Positions 4,867-33,448 of a stretch of DNA of 64,000 nucleotides are shown here, one piece after another. A program made the position numbers and the translations under genes. Source of the DNA: Mobula hypostoma (lineage: Eukaryota); the NCBI RefSeq assembly GCF_963921235.1, contig NC_086097.1, positions 4,340,001 to 4,404,000 of the forward strand. The letters run 5' to 3'. The notes below the pieces were generated by a model, which saw only the letters and a list, made by a program, of their open reading frames with translations, made no database searches and was not told the origin of the DNA. Each line of letters opens with the position of its first letter. Positions within the stretch are counted from its first letter, which is position 1.

Positions 4867-5215
4867 CTTTAGTTGCCGGGCATGTTTCACTTCTTTCTGT
4901 TACCTTGCCTTACTCTGGCACATTTTATTGTGTAAAGAGATGCTATGTTTTAGGAAAAGCTTTCTGGAAAATTCTCACTTCGGAGGCTTCACTCGTCTGG
5001 GTTGAGTACAGACTTCCGCAGTCAACACAGACTATCTCGTCTGTAGTAAGAAGAGGTCTCTTCAGCGATTTCACTTTAAAGTCTCGCTTAACTATAATTG
5101 CCTCGGGCTATCCGTGCTTTACTGTGACTTCCACACTGGTTCAAAATTTCAAGAGGAAAACTATGAGCAATATTTATGACAAGCAGTGTGTTGAAAATAA
5201 ATAGGTGTTAAATTG

Positions 5216-5512
5216 AAGTTGCTGGTGGACGCAGCAGGCCAGGCAGCATCTCTAGGAAGAGGTTCGGTCGACGTTTCGGGCCGAGACCCTTCGCCAGGAC
5301 TAAATGAAGGAAGAGTGAGTAAGAGCTAGTAAGAGCTAGGAAGAGCTACTAATCTCTTACTAACTTTTCCTTCAGTTAGTCCTGACGAAGGGTCTCGGCC
5401 TGAAACGTCGACTGTACCTCTTCCTAGAGATGCTGCCTGGCCTGCTGCGTTCACCAGCAACTTTGATGTGTGTTGCTTGAATTTCCAGCATCTGCAGAAT
5501 TCCTCCTGTTTG
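5216..5512 (+). mobile_element. Short non-autonomous Penelope-derived fold-back insertion with two inverted hammerhead-containing arms
   Basis: Left arm (from 5216) is the reverse complement of the right arm (to about 5463). 13-bp TSD AGGTGTTAAATTG at 5203-5215 and 5513-5525. Confidence 0.85.
5378..5413 (+). ncRNA. Minimal type I hammerhead ribozyme motif
   Basis: AGTC-CTGACGA-AGG GTCTCGG CCT-GAAA-CG-TC^GACT: helix I AGTC/GACT, intact core boxes, palindromic loopless helix III (ACGT). Confidence 0.8.
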
Positions 5513-5559
5513 AGGTGTTAAATTGGTGGGTTGCTGGGCAGTGAAGCTTGTTTCACATA

Positions 5560-5777
5560 GTATCTCTAAATAAATAAAGTAACACACACAAAATGTTTCC
5601 AGCGGTATCGCTAAATAAATAAAAATAACACACACAAAATGTTTCCAGCGGTATTTCTAAATAAATAAAGTAACACACACAAAATGTTTCCAGCGACATC
5701 TCTAAATAAATAAAGTAACACACACAAAATGTTTCCAGCGGTATCGCTAAATAAATAAAAATAACACACACAAAATG
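5560..5777. repeat. Minisatellite, five copies of a 45-46 bp unit
   Basis: CTAAATAAATAAA starts at 5566, 5611, 5657, 5702 and 5747. Two variants occur in the order A,B,A,A,B. Confidence 0.92.
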
Positions 5778-5985
5778 CTGGAGGAACTCAGCAGGTCAGG
5801 CAGCATCTATCAAAATGAATAAACAGGCGTCATTTCAGGCGGAGCCGTTCACCAGTCCTGATGAAGAGTCTTGGCCTGAAACGTCATCTGTACTCTTTTC
5901 TGTAGATGCTGCCTGGCCTGCTGAATTCCTCCAGCATTTTGTGTGTATTACTTTGTTTTCCGGCATCTGCAGATTTCCTCTTCAG
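5765..5985 (+). mobile_element. Older Penelope-derived fold-back unit with hammerhead motif at about 5854-5889
   Basis: CACACAAAATGCTGGAGGAACTCAGCAGG is inverted against CCTGCTGAATTCCTCCAGCATTTTGTGTG; contains AGTCCTGATGAAGAGTCTTGGCCTGAAACGTC. Confidence 0.75.
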
Positions 5986-13289: not shown

Positions 13290-13423
13290 CAACGAGAGAA
13301 CATCTGCAAATGCTGGAAATCCGAGCAGCACATACAAAATGCTGGAGGAACAAAACAGACCAGGCAGCATCTATGGAAAAAATACAGCTGACATTTCAGG
13401 TTGAATCCCTTCGGCAGGACTGA
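13290..13423 (-). mobile_element. Decayed Penelope-derived terminus with a degenerate hammerhead
   Basis: TCTGCAAATGCTGGAAAT...CAAAATGCTGGAGGAAC...CATTTCAGGTTGAATCCCTTCGGCAGGACT. Confidence 0.65.
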
Positions 13424-13599
13424 AAATTAGATAAATGTTTTGCTCATCCCAATACAGAAAAATGTGGTTAAACTGAAAATACTGTAGAAAAGTTCTATTG
13501 TCATGTTGTCAAGTGTAGACCGCCTGAGATGTTGTCCAGGCTAAGTCTTTCTTCTTTGGAACATAGGGTAATGGGGAGGGGAGATTTATAGAAATCTAA

Positions 13600-14375
13600 T
13601 CTGGATCCAGAGCACCTCTTCATTAGTCAAGAAGGCAAACCAATGTCTGCGCTTTCTGAGGAGACTGAGATGTGCGAAGTTCCCTGTCAGCATTCCAGCA
13701 TCTTTCAACAGGAGCACTTTGAAAGGGTGTCCTATCTGGCTGCATCATTGAGCGGTACAAAAGCTGCAAGGCTTTGGACTGCAAGGTCCTACTGGGATAG
13801 TAAAAACTGCCGAGAGGATCGCTGTGGTCTCCTCCCCACTATCTGTGACTTTTATCAGGAGCGTTGAATACAAAGGGCCTGTAGCTTTGCTGAGGATCCC
13901 TACCACCCAAGCCACAATCTCTTTGAGTCACTACCATCAGGAAGGGAGGAGATCCAGGAGCATCAGGACCAGACTGAGTAACAGCTTCTTTCCTCAGGCT
14001 GTGAGACTAATGAATACCATCTGAGATCTCAACACCAGGACAGTGAGCTCTTTGCTGTTTACCTGTGCTGTGCACTACATACATATTGCATTATATTTTA
14101 TATTTTATTAACTTACTTGTGGTGGTATTTTGTTTTACATTCTGTATGTGATATATGTTCTGTGGGTGCACCATGGTCCAGAGGAACATGTCCTGACGAA
14201 GGGTCTTGGCCTGAAACGTCAACTGTACCTCTTTCTAGAGATGCTGCCTGGCCTGCTGCGTTCACCAGCAACTTTGATGTGTGTTGCTTGAATTTCCAGC
14301 ATCTGCAGAATTCCTGTTGTTTCCAGAGGAACATTGTTTGCTTTGGTTGTATATATGTACAGTCAGATGACAACA
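13600..14375 (+). mobile_element. Decayed Rex1/Babar-like LINE 3' part, interrupted at 14190-14321
   Basis: RSIRTRLSNSFFPQAVRLMN remnant and the shared 3' UTR. Confidence 0.7.
14190..14321 (+). mobile_element. 132-bp single-arm Penelope-derived insertion beginning at the hammerhead 5' edge
   Basis: GTCCTGACGAAGGGTCTTGGCCTGAAACGTC...CTGCAGAATTCCTGTTGTT; 13-bp TSD TCCAGAGGAACAT at 14177-14189 and 14322-14334. Confidence 0.85.
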
Positions 14376-15029: not shown

Positions 15030-16813
15030 AAACACAAAATACTCTGCAGATGCTGGGGTCAAAGCAAAACTCACAACACGCTGGAGGAACTCAGCAGGTC
15101 GGGCAGCATCCGTGGAAAAGATCGGTCGACGTTTCGGGCCGGAACTCTTCGTCAGGACTGAAGAGGGAAGGGGCAGAGGCCCTATAAAGAAGGTGGGGGG
15201 AGAGTGGGAAGGAGAAGGCTGGTAGGTTCCAGGTGAAAAACCAGTAAGGGGAAAGATAAAGGGGTGGGGAAGGAAGGCAGGGAGCTGGTAGGCAGGAAAG
15301 GTGAAGAAGGAATAGGGGAAAATACAATGGGTAGTAGAAGGAGGCGGAACCATGAGGGAGGTGATAGGCAGCTGGGGGAGGGGGCAGAGTGAAATAGGGA
15401 TAGGGGAAGAGAGGGGGAGGGAATTACCCGAAGTTGGAGAATTCTATGTTCATACCAAGGGGCTGGAGACTACCTAGATGGTATATAAGGTGTTGCTCCT
15501 CCAACCTGAGTTTAGCTTCATCATGGCAGTAGAGGAGGCCATGTATGGACATATCTGAATTGGAATGGGAAGCAGAATTGAAGTGGGTGGCAACTGGGAG
15601 ATCCTGTCTGTTTTGGCGGACGGAGCGGAGGTGCCGACGAAGTGGCCCCCCAATCTGTGTCGGGTTTCACCGATGTAGAGGAGGCCACACCGGGAGCACT
15701 GGATGCAATAGATGACCCCAGCAGACTCACAAGTGAAGTGTTGCCTCACCTGGAAGGACTGTTTGGGGCCCTGAATGGTGGCAAGAGAGAAGGTGTAGGG
15801 ACAGGTGTAGCAGTTAAGCTTACAGGGATAATTGCCGGGTGGGAGATCCGTGGGGAGGGACGTGTGGATCAGGGAGTTGCGGAGGGAACGATCCCTGCAG
15901 AAAGCAGAGAGGGGTAGAGAGGGAAAGATGTGCTTAGTGGTGGGGTCTTGTTGAAGGTGGTGGAAGTTGCGGAGGATAATGGGGGACTGCTTCATCGAGC
16001 ACCTCCGCTCCGTCTGCCACAACAGACAGGATCTCCGCATTGCCACCCATTTCAACTTTGCTTCACATTCCCACTCTGATATGTCCATACATGGCCTCCT
16101 CTACCGCCATGATGAGGCTAAACTCAGGTTGGAAGAGCAAAACCTCATATACCGTCTAGGTAGTCTCCAGCCCCTTGGTATGAACATAGAATTCTCCAAC
16201 TTCTGGTAATTTCCTCCCCCTCTCTTCCCGTATCCCAGTTTCACTCTGCCCCCTCCCCCGGCTGCCTACTACCTCCCTCATGGTTCTGCCTCCTTCTACT
16301 ACCCATTGTGTTTTCCCCTATTCCTTCTTCACCTTACCTGCCTATCACCTTACATCAAAGTTGCTGGTGAACGCAGCAGGCCAAGCAGCATCTATAGGAA
16401 GAGGTGCAGTCGACGTTTCAGGCCGAGACCCTTCGTCAGGACTAACTGAAGGAAGAGTCCTGACGAAGGGTCTCGGCCTGAAACGTTGACTGCACCTCTT
16501 CCTGTAGATGCTGCTTGGCCTGCTGCGTTCACCAGCAACTTTGATGTATGTTGCTTGAATTTCCAGCATCTGCAGAATTCCTGTTGTCTGCCTATCACCT
16601 CCCTGCCTCCCCTCCCCCACCCCTTTATCTTTCCCCTTACTGGTTTTTCACCTGGAACCTACCAGCCTTCTCCTTCCCACCCTCCCCCCACCTTCTTTAT
16701 AGGGCCTCTGCCCCTTCCCTCTTCAGTCCTGACGAAGGGTTCCGGCCCGAAACGTTGACTGATCGTTTCCACGGATGCTGCCTGACCTGCTGAGTTCCTC
16801 CAGCGTGTTGTGA
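15030..16813. mobile_element. Neptune-type Penelope-like retroelement: inverted pair of 5'-truncated copies with GIY-YIG endonuclease remnant and terminal hammerheads
   Basis: Minus ORF 15474-16088 has a CKLNCYTC linker and FTCESAGVIYCIQCSRCGLLYIGET. The plus arm (about 15981-16813) is the reverse complement of 15071-15640. Hammerheads at 15124-15159 (-) and 16725-16760 (+). Confidence 0.88.
16351..16587 (+). mobile_element. Fold-back hammerhead unit nested in the Penelope element
   Basis: 93-bp inverted arms 16351-16443 and 16456-16548 with a 12-nt spacer; 13-bp TSD CTGCCTATCACCT at 16338-16350 and 16588-16600. Confidence 0.88.
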
Positions 16814-30082: not shown

Positions 30083-30485
30083 AAACACCTGGAATTACGA
30101 TATTGTGGCCATTACTGAGACTTGGATGCAGGAAGGGCAGGACCTGCAGCTCAGTATTCTGGGATTCTGGTTTTTTAAACATGATCAAGCAGAAAGTTAG
30201 AACCAGGAAGGGTCAATAACTCTACTGGATGTTTTTTATAGACCACCCAATAGTAACAGGGACATTGAGGAGCAGATAGGGAGACAGATTCTGGAAAGGT
30301 GACATAACAACAGGGTTGTCGTGGTGGGAGATTTTGATTTCCCAAATGTTGATCGGTATCTCAAAGGTTTTAGATGGGGTGTAGTTTGGTGTGTTCAGGA
30401 TGACTTCCTGACACAATATGTAGATAAGCCTACAAGAGGAGAGGCTGTACTTGATCTGGTATTGGAAATGAACCTGGTCAGGTGT

Positions 30486-33448
30486 CAAGTCTCTCTGTGA
30501 CCAGTGGTGTGCCTCAAGGATCTGTTCTTGGACCCCTTCTCTTTGTGATTTTTATAAATGACTTGGATGAGGAAGTGGAGGGATGGGTTAGTAAATTTGC
30601 GGATGACACACAAGATAGGGGTGTTGTGGATGGTGTGGAGGGCTGTCAGAGGTTACAGCGGGACATCGATAGGATGCAAAACTGGGCTGAGAAAGTGGCA
30701 GATGGAGCTCAACCCAGATAAGTGTGAGGTGGTTCATTTTGGTAGGTCAAATATGATGACAGAATTAATGGTAAGACTCTTGGCAGTGTAGAGGATCAGA
30801 GGGATCTTGAGGTCCATGTCCATCGGGCACTCAAAGCTGCTGCTTAGGTTGACTCTGTGGTTAAGAAGGCATATGGTGTATTGGCCTTCATCAACTGTGT
30901 GATTATGTTTAAAAGCCGAGAGGTAATATTGCAGCTATATCGGACCCTGGTCAGACCCCACTTGGAGTACTGTGCTCAGTTCTGGTCGCCTCACTACAGG
31001 AAGGATGTGGAAACTTCAGAAAGTGTGCAGAGGAGATTGACAAGGATGTTACCTGGATTAGGGAGCATGCCTTATGAGCAAACAACAGGAATTCTGAAGA
31101 TGCTGGAAATTCAAGCAACACACATCAAAGTTGCTGGTGAACGCAGCAGGCCAGGCAGCATCTGTAGGAAGAGGTGCAGTCGACGTCGACTGCACCTCTT
31201 CCTACAGATGCTGCCTGGCCTGCTGCGTTCACCAGCAACTTTGATGTGTGATGCCTTATGAGAATAGGTTGAGTGAATGCGGCCTTTTCTCCTTGGAGTG
31301 GCAGAGGAAGAGAGTTTACCTGATAGAGGTGTATAAGATGATGAGAGACATTGATTGTGTGGATAGTCAGAGGCTTTTTCCCTGGGCTGAAATGTTTAAA
31401 AAAAGGCTCTAAACATAAACCGGGAAATTATAGACCACTGAGTCTGACATCCATTGTGGGAAACTTATTGGAAAGTATTCTAATGAACTGGATATACAAG
31501 TATTTGGATAGACATAGACTGATTAAGCATCATCAGCATGACTTCACACGTGATAGGTCATGTCTAACCAATCTTATAGAGATTTTTGAGGAAGTTTTTT
31601 CAGGAAAGTAGATGAATGCAAGGCAATGGATGTTGTCTACATGGGCTTTGGCAAGGCATTTGACAGGGTCCCACGTGGGAGGTTGGTCAAGAAGGTTCTG
31701 TCACTTGGCATTCAGGATGAGGTAGTAAATTAGATTAAACATTGTCTCTGTGGGAAAAGTCAGAGAGTGGTATCAGTTGCCTCTCGGATTGAAGGCTTGT
31801 GATTAGTAATGGGCTGTGGGGATTGGTGTTGAGTTCTTTGTTACTTATTATCTATATCAATAATTTGGATGATAATGTTGTTAAATCGATCAGAAAATGT
31901 GTGGATGACACCAGGATTGGGTGTGTACTGGACAGTGAGGAAGTTTATCATAGTTTGGAGAGGGATCTGCATCAGCTGGAAAAATGGGCTGAAAAATGGC
32001 AGATGGAACTTAATACAGACAAATGCGAGGTTTTGTACTTCAGTAGGACCAACCAGGGTCGATGGTACACAGTGAACGGTAGGGGACTGAGGAGTGTGGT
32101 AGAACAAACAAATCTGGGAATACAGGTCCATAAATTGTTGAAAGTGGCATCACATGTAGATAGGTTCATAAAGAAAGCTTTTCATGCATTGGCCTTCATA
32201 AATCAAAGTAAATGATTTGGGATGGTATGTTGAAGTTCTATAAGATGTTGGTGAGGACTAATTTGGAGTATTGTGTGCAGTTTTGGTCACTTATCTGCAG
32301 GAAATATGTAAAGATGGTTGAAAGAGTACAGAGGAAATTTACAAAGATGTTGCTAGGTCTGGAGGGCCTGAGTAATGTGGAAAGATTGAATCTGTATACC
32401 TTAAAACTTAAAACTTAGAAGATTGAGAGGAGATTTGATAGAGGTATTCAAAATTATGTGCAATATAGACAGGGTAAATGCAAGCAAGCTTTTTCCACTG
32501 AGGTTGGGTAGGACTCTAACCAGAAGTGATGGGTTAAGGGTGAAAGGTGAAAGGTTTAAGTGGGAAAATTTCTTTGCTCAGAGGGTCGTAAGAGTGTGGA
32601 ATGAGCTTCCAACACAAATGGTGCATGTGAGCTCGACTTCAACATTTAAGAGAAGTTTGGATAGGTACATGGATGGATGGATGGGGTATGGAAGGCTATG
32701 ATCGTGGTGCAGGTCGATGGAAGTAGGCAGTGTAAATGGTTCAGTACAGACCACGTGGACTGAATGGCCTGTTTCTGTTCTGTACTTCTCTATGACTCTT
32801 GAGTCTATGATTCTATAAGAAATGCAAGAGAACATTTCAGAAGGAGATCAGGAGGGCTAAAGGAAGGCATGAAATTGCCCTAGCCAGAGAAGGTGAGGGA
32901 GAATCCTAAGGGCTTCTACAGATATACTAAGAGCAAAAGGATTGCAAGGGGCAAAATTGGTCCTCTGGATAATCAGCATGGTAATCCATGCATGGAGTCA
33001 AAAGAGATAGGGGAGATCTTAAATGGAGTTTACTTGGGAGATGGACAAACAGTCCATAGTACTGAGGCAAAGCAGCGGCAAGGTCTTGGGCCCCATACAG
33101 ATTATAGAGGAGGAGGAGTTTGCTGTATTGAGGCTAATTTAGTGTGGATAGAGTCCCAGGGCCTGACAATGTGTACCCTCAGACGCTACAGGAGGCAAGT
33201 GTAGAAAATGAAGGGGCCCAGAACCTCTCACAATACTCCAACATTATGATGCCAATGCCTGATAAAGCTTCAGCATTACAGCCTTGCTTTTATAGTTACA
33301 GCTATATAGGATCCTGGTCAGACCCCACTTAGAGTACTGTGCTCAGTTCAGGTCACCTTAGAACAGGAAGGATGTAGAAACTATAGAAAGGGTGCAGAGA
33401 AGATTTACACGGCTGTGCCTGGATTGGGGAGCATACCTTACGAGAATA
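30486..33448 (+). mobile_element. Stack of decayed CR1 ORF2 fragments
   Basis: [26 protein letters not shown] and NYRPLSLTS motifs in ORFs 30482, 30857, 31351, 31799, 32212, 32423 and 32893. Confidence 0.82.
31079..31250 (-). mobile_element. Penelope-derived insertion forming a perfect 132-bp palindrome plus a 40-nt tail
   Basis: Arms 31119-31184 and 31185-31250 with no spacer; 12-bp TSD ATGCCTTATGAG at 31067-31078 and 31251-31262. Confidence 0.9.

What the first reader, a model, noticed from the sequence alone, without database searches (positions are those of the whole stretch)
31067..31262. Perfect 132-bp spacerless palindrome centred on the hammerhead helix III (AC|GT), 3 nt from the predicted cleavage site
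Seen: arms 31119-31184 and 31185-31250 are exact reverse complements, with centre ...CAGTCGAC|GTCGACTG.... In intact copies this sequence reads GAAACGTC^GACTG, so everything upstream of helix III is missing. The insert has a clean 12-bp TSD inside a CR1. Inference: cDNA synthesis ended at or near the ribozyme cut and folded back or joined through the self-complementary ACGT, linking ribozyme geometry to insertion structure. Long perfect palindromes are usually unstable, so the insert is probably young.
Basis: partly seen in the sequence, partly recalled or inferred. Interest (0 to 1): 0.75.

Follow-up and report, generated by a model that had tools for sequence, protein, structure and literature searches.

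The report
Head-to-head Penelope retroelement insertion
The perfect palindrome is real, but it is an ordinary, very short insertion of a Penelope-like jumping gene made of two inverted copies of the element's end, joined at a self-complementary ACGT that happens to lie in its hammerhead motif.

Summary
Arms 31119-31184 and 31185-31250 are exact reverse complements, the centre is CAGTCGAC|GTCGACTG, and a 12-bp duplication flanks a 172-bp insert in a LINE remnant.

The insert is a doubly 5'-truncated, head-to-head insertion of a very abundant Penelope-like element (PLE). A 31-mer of its arm occurs 63,869 times in this 3.48-Gb genome. One arm carries the 40-nt "tail" and the other stops at the inner start site. 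This matches published PLE architecture.

The ACGT centre is not a special peak:
- About 33 of 5,458 short fold-backs have it.
- Perfect palindromes also sit on GTCGAC (75 places), GTAC (26) and GGCC (20), against 14 for ACGT.
- A symmetric join at a non-self-complementary position occurs 0 times.

Junctions therefore follow microhomology, not the ribozyme cut. Asymmetric junctions occur with either arm the longer (9 against 15), which argues against simple snap-back.

Most likely mechanism: two same-sense cDNAs, primed from both target strands, annealed at ACGT. This is a new member of a known kind, of modest interest. The census does bear on the unsolved PLE integration mechanism.

The parts
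31067..31078 (.). Left copy of the 12-bp target-site duplication ATGCCTTATGAG
   Evidence: family D5, 100%. The host LINE frame reads MPYE in both copies.
31079..31118 (-). The 40-nt 'tail' of the element, present on this arm only. The + strand shows the cDNA sense, CAAACAACAGGAATTCTGAAGATGCTGGAAATTCAAGCAA. It is the stretch between the outer and inner reverse-transcription start sites.
   Evidence: The same tail ends the copies at 5215-5512, 14190-14322 and 16351-16587. Tail arms of 28 loci start at or within a few nt of CAAACAACAGG. The tail concept comes from PMC8557442 and PMC11167929.
31119..31184 (-). Arm 1 (tail-bearing copy), 66 nt. In RNA sense on the - strand it runs from GUCGACUG.. 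to ..CUUUGAUGUGUG. It is 5'-truncated inside the minimal hammerhead, between positions 15.2 and 16.2.
   Evidence: 95% to the 3' part of copy 5215-5512.
31185..31250 (+). Arm 2 (inverted copy without tail), 66 nt, exact reverse complement of arm 1. It ends at ..GATGTGTG, near the inner start site, where 13 of 28 related loci end ..GTGTGTTGC (by-eye count).
31183..31186 (.). Junction tetranucleotide ACGT. It is the self-complementary microhomology shared by both arms, and corresponds to hammerhead positions 15.1, 15.2, 16.2 and 16.1.
   Evidence: The palindromic 15.2-16.2 is a stated feature of PLE minimal hammerheads (PMC4209133, passages read).
31251..31262 (.). Right copy of the target-site duplication.
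30455..31412 (+). Host: decayed LINE reverse-transcriptase remnant interrupted by the insert.
   Evidence: RVT_1 hit, E 1.7e-07, on 30455-30718. Open stretches 30848-31261 and 31245-31412 both read ..MPYE...

Best explanation
The 172-bp insert is a very short insertion of an endonuclease-type Penelope-like retroelement (PLE). It consists of two inverted copies of the element's 3' end, joined head to head. In the PLE literature this is 'an inverted 5'-truncated copy adjacent to the 5' end', with a 30-40-bp tail on one side only.

Proposed steps:
1. The PLE protein cuts both target strands about 12-14 bp apart. This is inferred from the duplications. Cutting of both strands was shown in vitro for an Anolis PLE.
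2. Each 3' end primes reverse transcription of PLE RNA. One starts at the outer site and gives the 40-nt tail. The other starts at the inner site about 40 nt upstream. This is inferred from where the arms begin.
3. Both cDNAs stop early, here about 66 nt beyond the inner start. The cause is unknown.
4. Two cDNAs of the same sense can pair only where the sequence is self-complementary or meets an inverted microhomology. Here their 3' ends paired at ACGT, and each was extended on the other, or one switched template onto the other. That gives a spacerless perfect palindrome. This step is inferred. The census supports the microhomology rule.
5. Host repair seals the ends.

The hammerhead matters only because its helix III positions are palindromic. 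No ribozyme cleavage is needed, and the insert itself holds no ribozyme core.

Confidence is split. That it is a head-to-head PLE insertion: about 0.9. That the junction arose from two primed cDNAs annealed at ACGT during integration: about 0.55-0.6.
For: Identity as a PLE:
- Longer copies of the same family run from an ORF end (..LQPNGMNIDFSNFR*) through about 330 nt to the motif CTGACGA-A-GGGTCTCGGCCT-GAAACGTC^GACTG and on to the tail (L032:4076-5148, a 1.09-kb head-to-head copy with its own 12-bp duplication).
- An adjacent ORF piece (L041:7469-8056) matches ray and shark proteins at 61-88% identity. It also matches proteins with RVT_1 followed by a C-terminal GIY-YIG domain (P0041: 503-679 and 915-994; P0043).

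Architecture:
- The tail is on one arm in all 5 fold-backs seen without selection (window 5215-5512, 16351-16587, 31079-31250; L032; L041:7287-8208).
- 20 of 28 related loci have duplications of 12-17 bp.

Literature:
- Inverted 5'-truncated copy and one-sided tail (PMC8557442).
- Palindromes at the inverted junction (PMC3846280).
- Both target strands cut and extended, two adjacent start sites whose interval is the tail, and hammerhead mutants that do not affect insertion (PMC11167929).

Recurrence and independent origin:
- 13 other loci with different flanks have the same centre.
- They fall on at least 5 arm haplotypes, and differences between copies are mirrored in both arms (23 mirrored against 18 single-arm departures; within-copy 1.29 against between-copy 3.0 differences per 60 nt).
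- The same haplotypes occur with other centres.

Microhomology rule (whole-genome exact counts, reversed-pattern controls all 0):
- Perfect palindromes centred on GTCGAC: 75; GTAC: 26; GGCC: 20; ACGT: 14.
- Symmetric join at non-self-complementary CAG|CTG: 0.
- The commonest asymmetric join, GAGAC|GTCGAC: 56.

Two primed cDNAs rather than snap-back:
- The asymmetric form has the tail arm longer in 9 places and the non-tail arm longer in 15.
- 8 of 50 GTCGAC-centred copies carry different subfamily variants (TACAG/TGCAG) on the two arms.
Against: - No step of integration was observed. All steps are inferred from end products.
- Deletion between direct repeats inside a longer palindrome would give the same set of junctions. 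So would reverse transcriptase slipping across a hairpin RNA. A self-complementary k-mer is a direct repeat in the two arms, so the microhomology census does not separate joining at insertion from later deletion.
- Arm ends are not explained by microhomology alone in my small by-eye sample. 15 of 50 arm ends lie at positions 18-23, the cut site to ACGT, and 10 of 50 at 34-38. One junction (C1:2229148) ends exactly at the predicted cut with no microhomology. This sample is 25 young copies of the 50 listed; 25 older or complex copies were dropped.
- No TACAG/CGCAG mixed copy was seen (0 of 50), where random pairing of templates would give about 14. Templates are therefore not drawn at random. 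The TACAG/TGCAG mixtures could be mutations.
- Pfam found nothing in this genome's own decayed ORF pieces. The RT + GIY-YIG evidence comes through homologues.
- Pattern counts use exact patterns of different length and CpG content, so they compare only to within a few-fold.
Confidence: 0.6

Rival explanations
1. Snap-back self-priming. A single cDNA primed at the outer start site folds back on itself at a short complementary stretch and copies itself, making the second arm. This is the 'self-priming' reading of palindromic junctions in PMC3846280.
For: - Arms are identical at birth, as in 6 of 14 ACGT-centred copies with 0 mismatches, and variants are mirrored in both arms.
- The form GTCGAC-GTTTC-AGGCC-GAGAC|GTCGAC can be drawn as a hairpin whose 3' end GAGAC pairs with GTTTC.
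- PMC3846280 (passages read) interprets palindromes at inverted PLE junctions as self-priming.
Against: - A spacerless palindrome cannot arise from an intramolecular fold-back, which needs a loop.
- The mirror form, in which the non-tail arm holds sequence that the tail arm lacks, is at least as common (15 against 9; also L014, L023, L029, L030).
- The second arm stops near one defined site (..GTGTGTTGC in 13 of 28 loci) instead of copying the tail. That fits a second initiation site.
- Mixed-variant arms occur in 8 of 50 copies.
Confidence: 0.12
2. Secondary loss of the hairpin tip. A longer head-to-head insertion, like 5215-5512 or L032, was shortened by deletion between the two ACGT copies, which are direct repeats in a palindrome. 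This happened either in the genome, through replication slippage or centre-break repair, or when reverse transcriptase skipped across a hairpin in RNA read from an existing fold-back copy.
For: - The product set predicted is the same as observed: symmetric centres only at self-complementary motifs, and mirror pairs of asymmetric centres at similar frequency.
- Slips within one arm exist. C1:214230 lacks the stretch between two GAC triplets.
- Long palindromes are known to be trimmed at the centre (recalled, not read here).
Against: - This copy shows no age: 0 of 66 arm mismatches and a perfect duplication. That leaves little time for a second event.
- Short fold-backs are extremely common. There are 5,458 with 12-72 nt between anchors, and 8 inverted pairs among the first 100 arms listed. 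Their size spectrum is continuous, like ordinary 5' truncation.
- Mixed-variant arms are not explained by deletion.
Confidence: 0.12
3. A palindromic master copy. One 172-bp fold-back element became a source gene, and the roughly 14-33 copies with this centre are its faithful descendants.
For: Several copies are near-identical over all 172 nt (L002 99%; L009, L010 and L012 alike). All share the same ends.
Against: - The centre occurs on at least 5 arm haplotypes, which also exist with other centres.
- Differences between copies are mirrored in both arms. Faithful copying of one master does not produce that.
- The insert lacks everything upstream of helix III, including any promoter-bearing part.
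Confidence: 0.07
4. Ribozyme-defined junction. cDNA ends are set by the hammerhead, either by run-off at the self-cleaved 5' end or because two template RNAs are held together through the intermolecular ACGU helix III of a hammerhead dimer. The two cDNAs then meet in register.
For: - The commonest perfect palindrome is centred exactly on the predicted cut (CAGTC|GACTG, 75 places).
- Arm ends are enriched at positions 18-23 in my by-eye sample (15 of 50).
- One blunt junction lies exactly at the cut (C1:2229148).
- PLE minimal hammerheads are thought to act as dimers through palindromic 15.2-16.2 (PMC4209133).
Against: - The arms of this insert retain GTC 5' of the cut.
- GTCGAC is also the longest self-complementary motif (6 bp), so its excess is expected without cleavage.
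- GTAC and GGCC, which lie outside helix III, give 26 and 20 perfect palindromes.
- ACGT-centred copies are about 0.6% of short fold-backs.
- In vitro, hammerhead mutants do not change PLE insertion, and no RNA reads end at the cut (PMC11167929).
- The young subfamilies carry U at 11.1 (a G.U pair at 10.1-11.1), which argues against strong selection for cleavage.
Confidence: 0.06
5. Assembly artefact. The palindrome was created by the assembler or by chimeric reads.
For: Inverted repeats are a known source of assembly error (PMC8557442 notes problems with PLE structures). Raw reads could not be examined.
Against: 14 exact and about 30 near-exact copies of the same centre lie at independent loci with their own duplications. 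The intact 12-bp duplication restores the host LINE frame.
Confidence: 0.02

Closest known systems
Endonuclease-containing Penelope-like elements (Penelope/Poseidon/Neptune type): insertions with an inverted 5'-truncated copy, a one-sided 30-40-bp tail and palindromes at the inverted junction (PMC3846280 and PMC8557442, passages read)
   Same: - One-sided tail of 40 nt.
- Head-to-head inverted copy.
- Variable 5' truncation.
- Target duplications of about 12-16 bp.
- Hammerhead motif upstream of the start sites.
- RT plus C-terminal GIY-YIG in homologues of the family's ORF.
- A palindromic junction.
   Different: - Here both copies are cut down to 66 nt past the inner start, so nothing but the two arms and the tail is left.
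- The family is very abundant in a cartilaginous fish (63,869 exact 31-mers).
- Its junction spectrum was counted here, and I did not find such a count in print (searches only).
In vitro mechanism of the Anolis PLE 'PAc' (Frangieh et al. 2024, PMC11167929; main text read)
   Same: - Two adjacent internal start sites whose interval equals the tail.
- Both target strands cut and extended.
- A hammerhead cut site some tens of nt upstream of the start sites (63-67 nt here, about 85-92 nt in PAc).
- Cleavage not needed for insertion.
   Different: - That work did not follow the joining of the two cDNAs.
- Here only genomic end products are seen.
- The start sites here lie in a GU-rich stretch of the RNA (AC-rich in the cDNA) and were not mapped biochemically.
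Minimal hammerhead ribozymes of metazoan PLEs (Cervera and de la Pena 2014, PMC4209133; passages read)
   Same: - Core CUGAYGA ... GAAA ... GUC.
[quoted passage not shown]
- Helix II GGGU/GCCY with a tetraloop.
- No helix III loop.
- Palindromic 15.2-16.2 (ACGU).
   Different: - Young subfamilies have U at 11.1 instead of the conserved C.
- No Rfam hammerhead model matches.
- Activity is untested.
- The insert itself keeps only the part 3' of position 15.2.
L1 5' inversion by twin priming (Ostertag and Kazazian 2001; recalled, not read here)
   Same: The second target strand primes a second cDNA. The two cDNAs are joined by microhomology, giving an inverted 5' part.
   Different: In L1 the second primer anneals internally on the same RNA, so the inverted part is a different, upstream segment and no palindrome arises. 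Here both arms are copies of the same 3' segment.
Non-LTR retrozymes (PMC7229834, listing only; bioRxiv 10.64898/2026.07.22.740005, abstract and passages read)
   Same: Short hammerhead-bearing, PLE-related non-autonomous sequences in vertebrate genomes, cartilaginous fish included.
   Different: Retrozymes are tandem direct repeats thought to move through circular RNA. This is a dispersed inverted pair with a target duplication and no complete ribozyme.

Membership tests
Penelope-like element (endonuclease-containing) | Single ORF with reverse transcriptase followed by a C-terminal GIY-YIG endonuclease | tested here: met
   Met indirectly. The ORF piece next to the arms (L041:7469-8056) hits 47 longer proteins. 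P0041 has RVT_1 at 503-679 and GIY-YIG at 915-994, P0043 has both domains, and P0001 (88% identical) has a weak GIY-YIG hit. The genome's own decayed pieces gave no Pfam hit.
Penelope-like element (endonuclease-containing) | [quoted passage not shown] | tested here: met
   The 40-nt tail 31079-31118 is on arm 1 only. The same holds in 5 of 5 unselected fold-backs. One locus with tails on both arms was seen (C50:112311411-112311575).
Penelope-like element (endonuclease-containing) | Frequent 5' truncation with an inverted 5'-truncated copy adjacent to the 5' end | tested here: met
   There are 5,458 anchor pairs 12-72 nt apart. 8 inverted pairs occur among the first 100 arms listed. Arm lengths range from a few nt to about 510 nt.
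Penelope-like element (endonuclease-containing) | Partial tandem copies forming pseudo-LTRs | not tested
   No tandem copy was looked for.
Penelope-like element (endonuclease-containing) | Hammerhead motif in the repeat upstream of the reverse-transcription start sites | tested here: met
   The motif CTGACGA-N13-GAAACGTC^GACTG lies 63-67 nt upstream of the inner start in the longer copies.
Minimal type-I hammerhead ribozyme | Conserved core (C3 U4 G5 A6 N7 G8 A9 ... G12 A13 A14 ... U16.1 H17) with helices I and II | tested here: met
   Read by eye in the family's longer copies. 17 motif matches in 359 kb were listed. Helix I is 5-6 bp. Helix II is GGGU/GCCY. Little covariation is available. 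The insert itself lacks the core.
Minimal type-I hammerhead ribozyme | Match to a curated hammerhead covariance model | tested here: not met
   There is no Rfam hit at gathering score in the window, and none at E up to 10 on 5150-5560. Only chance microRNA-hairpin matches to the fold-back appeared. This is expected for motifs without helix III.
Minimal type-I hammerhead ribozyme | Self-cleavage | not testable with these tools
   This needs transcription and cleavage assays of monomer and dimer constructs.
L1-type twin-priming inversion | The inverted 5' segment is a different, upstream part of the template, so no sequence is present twice | tested here: not met
   Both arms are the same 66 nt.
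Fold-back or miniature inverted-repeat DNA transposon | Symmetric terminal inverted repeats reaching both ends, and a fixed short target duplication | tested here: not met
   The ends are asymmetric, with a tail on one side. Inner arm ends vary from copy to copy. Duplications are 12-17 bp in 20 of 28 loci.

The most novel reading that the evidence does not exclude
The hammerhead is a synapsis device. Two PLE template RNAs held in the dimeric protein pair through the intermolecular ACGU helix III of a hammerhead dimer. Alternatively, they are trimmed at the adjacent cut. The two convergent cDNAs would then end in register around positions 18-23. That would explain the excess of arm ends there, the 75 palindromes centred exactly on the predicted cut, and the ACGT-centred class. 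It would give the long-unexplained PLE ribozyme a role in forming the inverted junction.
Probability: 0.07. Interest if true: 0.8.

Novelty: new member of a known kind. Interest (0 to 1): 0.33.

Why it matters
As a single locus it is ordinary: one of tens of thousands of truncated insertions of a known class of retroelement. The family behind it is useful, though. How Penelope-like elements make their tandem and inverted structures is described in the literature as still undefined (PMC8557442).

This genome holds thousands of minimal head-to-head insertions whose junctions can be read base by base. The counts made here bear on that question:
- Perfect palindromes occur only at self-complementary motifs.
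- Mirror-image asymmetric junctions occur at similar frequency.
- The second arm ends at the inner start site.

They fit the in vitro finding that both target strands are extended from two start sites. They suggest that the inverted copy comes from a second primed cDNA joined by microhomology. A full census could settle whether the ribozyme contributes anything.

Tried and rejected
- **Rfam.** No hammerhead or any other family at gathering score in the window. At E up to 10 on 5150-5560, only sub-threshold microRNA-precursor matches to the fold-back hairpin appeared, which I take as chance.
- **Sequencing runs.** Only Logan contigs of four runs could be laid. Thousands of paralogous pieces piled up and no listed piece spanned the stretch. 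The palindrome at this locus, its read support and any presence/absence polymorphism could therefore not be tested.
- **Random genome sample.** Only 200 kb was obtained. It held too few copies for a distribution, so I turned to whole-genome pattern counts.
- **Pfam on this genome's own PLE ORF pieces.** No hit (L041 piece; five pieces).
- **Earlier notes of this scan.** Nothing on this element.
- **Ideas considered and dropped:**
  - A microRNA or hairpin-RNA gene. The structure has a target duplication, a one-sided tail and copy-specific arm lengths.
  - A DNA fold-back transposon (see the membership test).
  - Slippage between the two GTCGAC hexamers. That would leave one GTCGAC, not two.
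- **Not used:** Structure prediction, fold search, complex prediction. No open protein question bears on the finding.
Full report
**The observation.**
- Positions 31119-31184 and 31185-31250 are perfect reverse complements with no spacer. The centre is GGTGCAGTCGAC|GTCGACTGCACC.
- ATGCCTTATGAG stands at 31067-31078 and again at 31251-31262.
- As single-stranded DNA the 172-nt insert folds at -95.2 kcal/mol, against -25.4 +/- 3.2 for 200 shuffles.
- The flanks are a decayed LINE. RVT_1 hits occur on 30455-30718 and on neighbouring paralogues.
- Without the insert and one repeat copy, the frame reads ..LPGLGSMPYE|NRLSECGLFSLE... A paralogue 1 kb away reads ..LPGLEKLSYRERLNRLGPYSLE...
- I did not test whether the LINE is of the CR1 clade.

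**The element in the window.** The same sequence occurs elsewhere in the window.
- Copy 14190-14322 is a plain 5'-truncated copy. It runs gtcCTGACGAagggtcttggcctGAAACGTCaactg ... cctgttgttt, between two copies of ccagaggaacat.
- Copies 5215-5512 and 16351-16587 are themselves fold-backs with longer arms. Their centres are 28 nt and 16 nt of unpaired sequence, and each has its own 12-13-bp duplication.
- In all of them about 40 nt (..ttgcttgaatttccagcatctgcagaattcctgttgtttg) are present on one arm only. The other arm stops near ..gatgtgtg(ttgc).
- In the insert under study the + strand shows the complement. The tail is 31079-31118, the tail-bearing arm is 31119-31184, and the inverted arm without tail is 31185-31250.

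**What family it is.**
- A random 200-kb sample of the same genome held longer copies.
- L032:4076-5148 is a 1.09-kb head-to-head pair with its own duplication ggaggtaccctt. Each arm runs from the end of an ORF (..LRLEEQHLVFRLGSLQPNGMNIDFSNFR*) through about 330 nt to the hammerhead-like motif and on to the ends.
- L041:7287-8208 joins a short inverted arm to 196 codons of ORF (..YYKPTDSHSYLDY..) followed by the same 3' region.
- That ORF piece finds 47 longer proteins. The closest, at 61-88% identity, are from rays and sharks.
- More distant hits carry RVT_1 followed by a C-terminal GIY-YIG domain (P0041: 503-679 and 915-994; P0043). This is the architecture of endonuclease-containing Penelope-like elements (PLEs).
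- Pfam saw nothing in this genome's own decayed pieces, so this evidence is indirect.
- The host is thus a cartilaginous fish, probably a ray.
- The family is huge. One 31-mer of the arm occurs 63,869 times in 3.48 Gb, with reversed control 0.

**The hammerhead.**
- The motif in longer copies is CUGACGA-A-GGGUCUCGGCCU-GAA-ACGU-C^GACUG. Helix I is 5 bp (GACUG with UAGUC, including one G.U pair).
- This fits the 'minimal hammerhead' of metazoan PLEs (PMC4209133, passages read). That description lists an extra nucleotide between 9 and 10.1, a G10.1-C11.1 pair, no helix III, palindromic 15.2-16.2, presumed action as dimers and low activity in vitro.
- Variants with GGCCC keep C11.1. The young subfamilies have U, a CpG decay.
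- Rfam's models do not match. Only 17 intact motifs were available locally and they show little covariation.
- The label therefore rests on motif and context. The insert itself holds only the part from G16.2 onward and has no ribozyme core.

**What is already known.**
- PMC8557442 (passages read): PLE insertions are strongly 5'-truncated. [quoted passage not shown] A 30-40-bp tail is often present at one end only. The mechanism is described as undefined.
- PMC11167929 (main text read), on a purified Anolis PLE protein:
  - It cuts and extends both target strands.
  - It starts reverse transcription at two adjacent internal sites, and the interval between them is the tail.
  - Hammerhead mutants do not change insertion.
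  - No RNA reads end at the cut.
- The insert is therefore a miniature of a described architecture.

**Is the ACGT centre special?** Searching the genome with the insert gave 13 further loci with the same centre, different flanks and their own duplications.

Spread of centres:
- The pattern CAGGCAGCATCT-N(12-72)-AGATGCTGCCTG has 5,458 places, reversed control 0.
- The 50 places listed first along contig C1 show very diverse centres, mostly asymmetric.
- 2 of the 50 have the ACGT centre. 4 have GAGAC|GTCGAC or its mirror image.
- The spacing that the ACGT centre requires (42 nt) has 59 places, below the mean of about 89 per length. By eye, 27-29 of the 50 listed are ACGT-centred, many with decayed CpGs. 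That is roughly 33 copies, or 0.6% of the set.

Exact counts of perfect palindromes built on other self-complementary motifs of the arm:

| Junction | Places |
|---|---|
| GTCGAC | 75 |
| ACGT | 14 |
| GTAC (one subfamily only) | 26 |
| GGCC | 20 |
| CAG\|CTG, symmetric, not self-complementary | 0 |
| GAGAC\|GTCGAC, asymmetric, both mirror forms | 56 |

- The patterns differ in length (22-30 nt) and in CpG number (0-5), so they compare only within a few-fold.
- The picture is still clear. Spacerless palindromes arise wherever the arm is self-complementary, and ACGT is a minor site.

**Recurrent origin.**
- Among the 14 ACGT-centred copies, arms differ by 1.29 per 60 nt within a copy and by 3.0 between copies.
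- 23 departures from the consensus are mirrored in both arms, against 18 on one arm. 6 copies, this one included, have no arm mismatch.
- The centre sits on at least five arm haplotypes (for example GGTGCAG, GGCGCAG and GGTACAG combined with GTAGG, CTAGG or ATAGG).
- The same haplotypes occur with other centres.
- The junction was therefore made many times, not inherited from one master.

**How the junction forms.** Two same-sense strands can pair only at self-complementary motifs, which gives a symmetric junction, or at inverted microhomologies, which gives an asymmetric junction with a mirror twin. That is the observed spectrum.

Snap-back of one cDNA predicts that the tail arm is always the longer. 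With the tail as marker:
- The tail arm is longer in 9 places and the other arm in 15. One locus with tails on both arms counts in both.
- In the biased sample the split is 6 against 4.

Further points against snap-back:
- A loop-free palindrome cannot come from an intramolecular fold.
- The arm without tail ends at ..GTGTGTTGC in 13 of 28 loci (by eye; ends also listed). That fits a second initiation site.
- 8 of 50 GTCGAC-centred copies carry TACAG on one arm and TGCAG on the other, which hints at two templates. But 0 carry TACAG with CGCAG, where random pairing would give about 14. Either the subfamilies were active at different times, or the mixtures are mutations.

I therefore favour two cDNAs primed from the two target strands and joined at ACGT.

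**What remains open.**
- Deletion between the two ACGT copies of a longer palindrome would give the same products, so the census cannot exclude it. So would reverse transcriptase skipping a hairpin. The absence of any age signal in this copy and the sheer number of short fold-backs speak against it.
- In my by-eye parse of 25 young copies (25 older or complex ones dropped), 15 of 50 arm ends fall at positions 18-23 after the anchor. That stretch runs from the predicted cut to ACGT. Another 10 fall at 34-38.
- One junction (C1:2229148) lies exactly at the cut without microhomology.
- A residual effect of the ribozyme region on where cDNAs end is therefore not excluded.

**Age and stability.**
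- The copy is young by its own features: 0 of 66 arm mismatches, a perfect duplication, and 2 differences in 172 from L002.
- The argument from instability is weak. Many copies with the same centre have accumulated CpG decay and arm mismatches.
- Read-level confirmation and polymorphism could not be tested. Only short contigs of public runs were available, and they pile up from paralogues. Loose ends at 31078 reading AATAGGTTGAGTGAA come from uninterrupted LINE paralogues. They agree with the inferred empty site.

**Verdict.** The proposed tie between ribozyme geometry and insertion structure is not supported. The thing is a new member of a known kind. Literature searches found the architecture described, but no count of junction positions like the one made here. 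Those three searches are the whole basis for that statement.

Noticed in passing
G000 list (e.g. C2:18882347, C5:193211922, C9:188931718): Among 50 listed GTCGAC-centred palindromes the two arms carry TACAG/TACAG in 28, CGCAG/CGCAG in 11, TGCAG/TGCAG in 2, TACAG/TGCAG in 8, TACAG/CACAG in 1 and TACAG/CGCAG in 0. Mixed arms at a subfamily-diagnostic site suggest two template RNAs. The complete absence of one mixture is unexplained.
   Followed up: partly
G000:C50:112311411-112311575: A fold-back copy that carries the tail on both arms, unlike every other copy examined.
   Followed up: no
L032:4076-5148: A 1.09-kb near-perfect head-to-head palindrome of the same family. It includes the end of the endonuclease ORF on both arms and has its own 12-bp duplication. 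Long palindromes of this family do survive in the assembly.
   Followed up: partly
window 5763-5982, 13303-13424, 15043-15170, 16714-16804: Older, 73-83% similar relatives of the same 3' region, with CTGATGA cores. At least 5763-5982 is again a fold-back with inverted arms. The head-to-head habit is therefore old in this lineage. The window holds at least nine copies of the family in 64 kb.
   Followed up: partly
window 5386-5398, 16470-16482; L029, L030: The young subfamilies read GGCCTGAAAC, with U at hammerhead position 11.1 (a G.U pair). Other copies keep GGCCCGAAAC with the conserved G-C pair. The change is a CpG decay carried by the most recently active copies, which sits oddly with a need for efficient self-cleavage.
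   Followed up: no
G000:C1:214230-214320: A complex junction. One arm lacks the 16 nt between two GAC triplets and is then joined asymmetrically to the other arm. Slips also happen within an arm.
   Followed up: no
Contigs of runs labelled with at least ten different coded organisms hold a quarter to a half of the sampled words of window 30900-31450. The LINE and PLE families are therefore shared by several related species.
   Followed up: no
window 31251-31254: The first bases of the duplication (ATGC) resemble the usual last bases of the tail-less arm (TTGC). This is why repeat finder extends the palindrome to 70 nt at 99%. It is either chance or a 3-nt match between the target end and the inner start site.
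   Followed up: no
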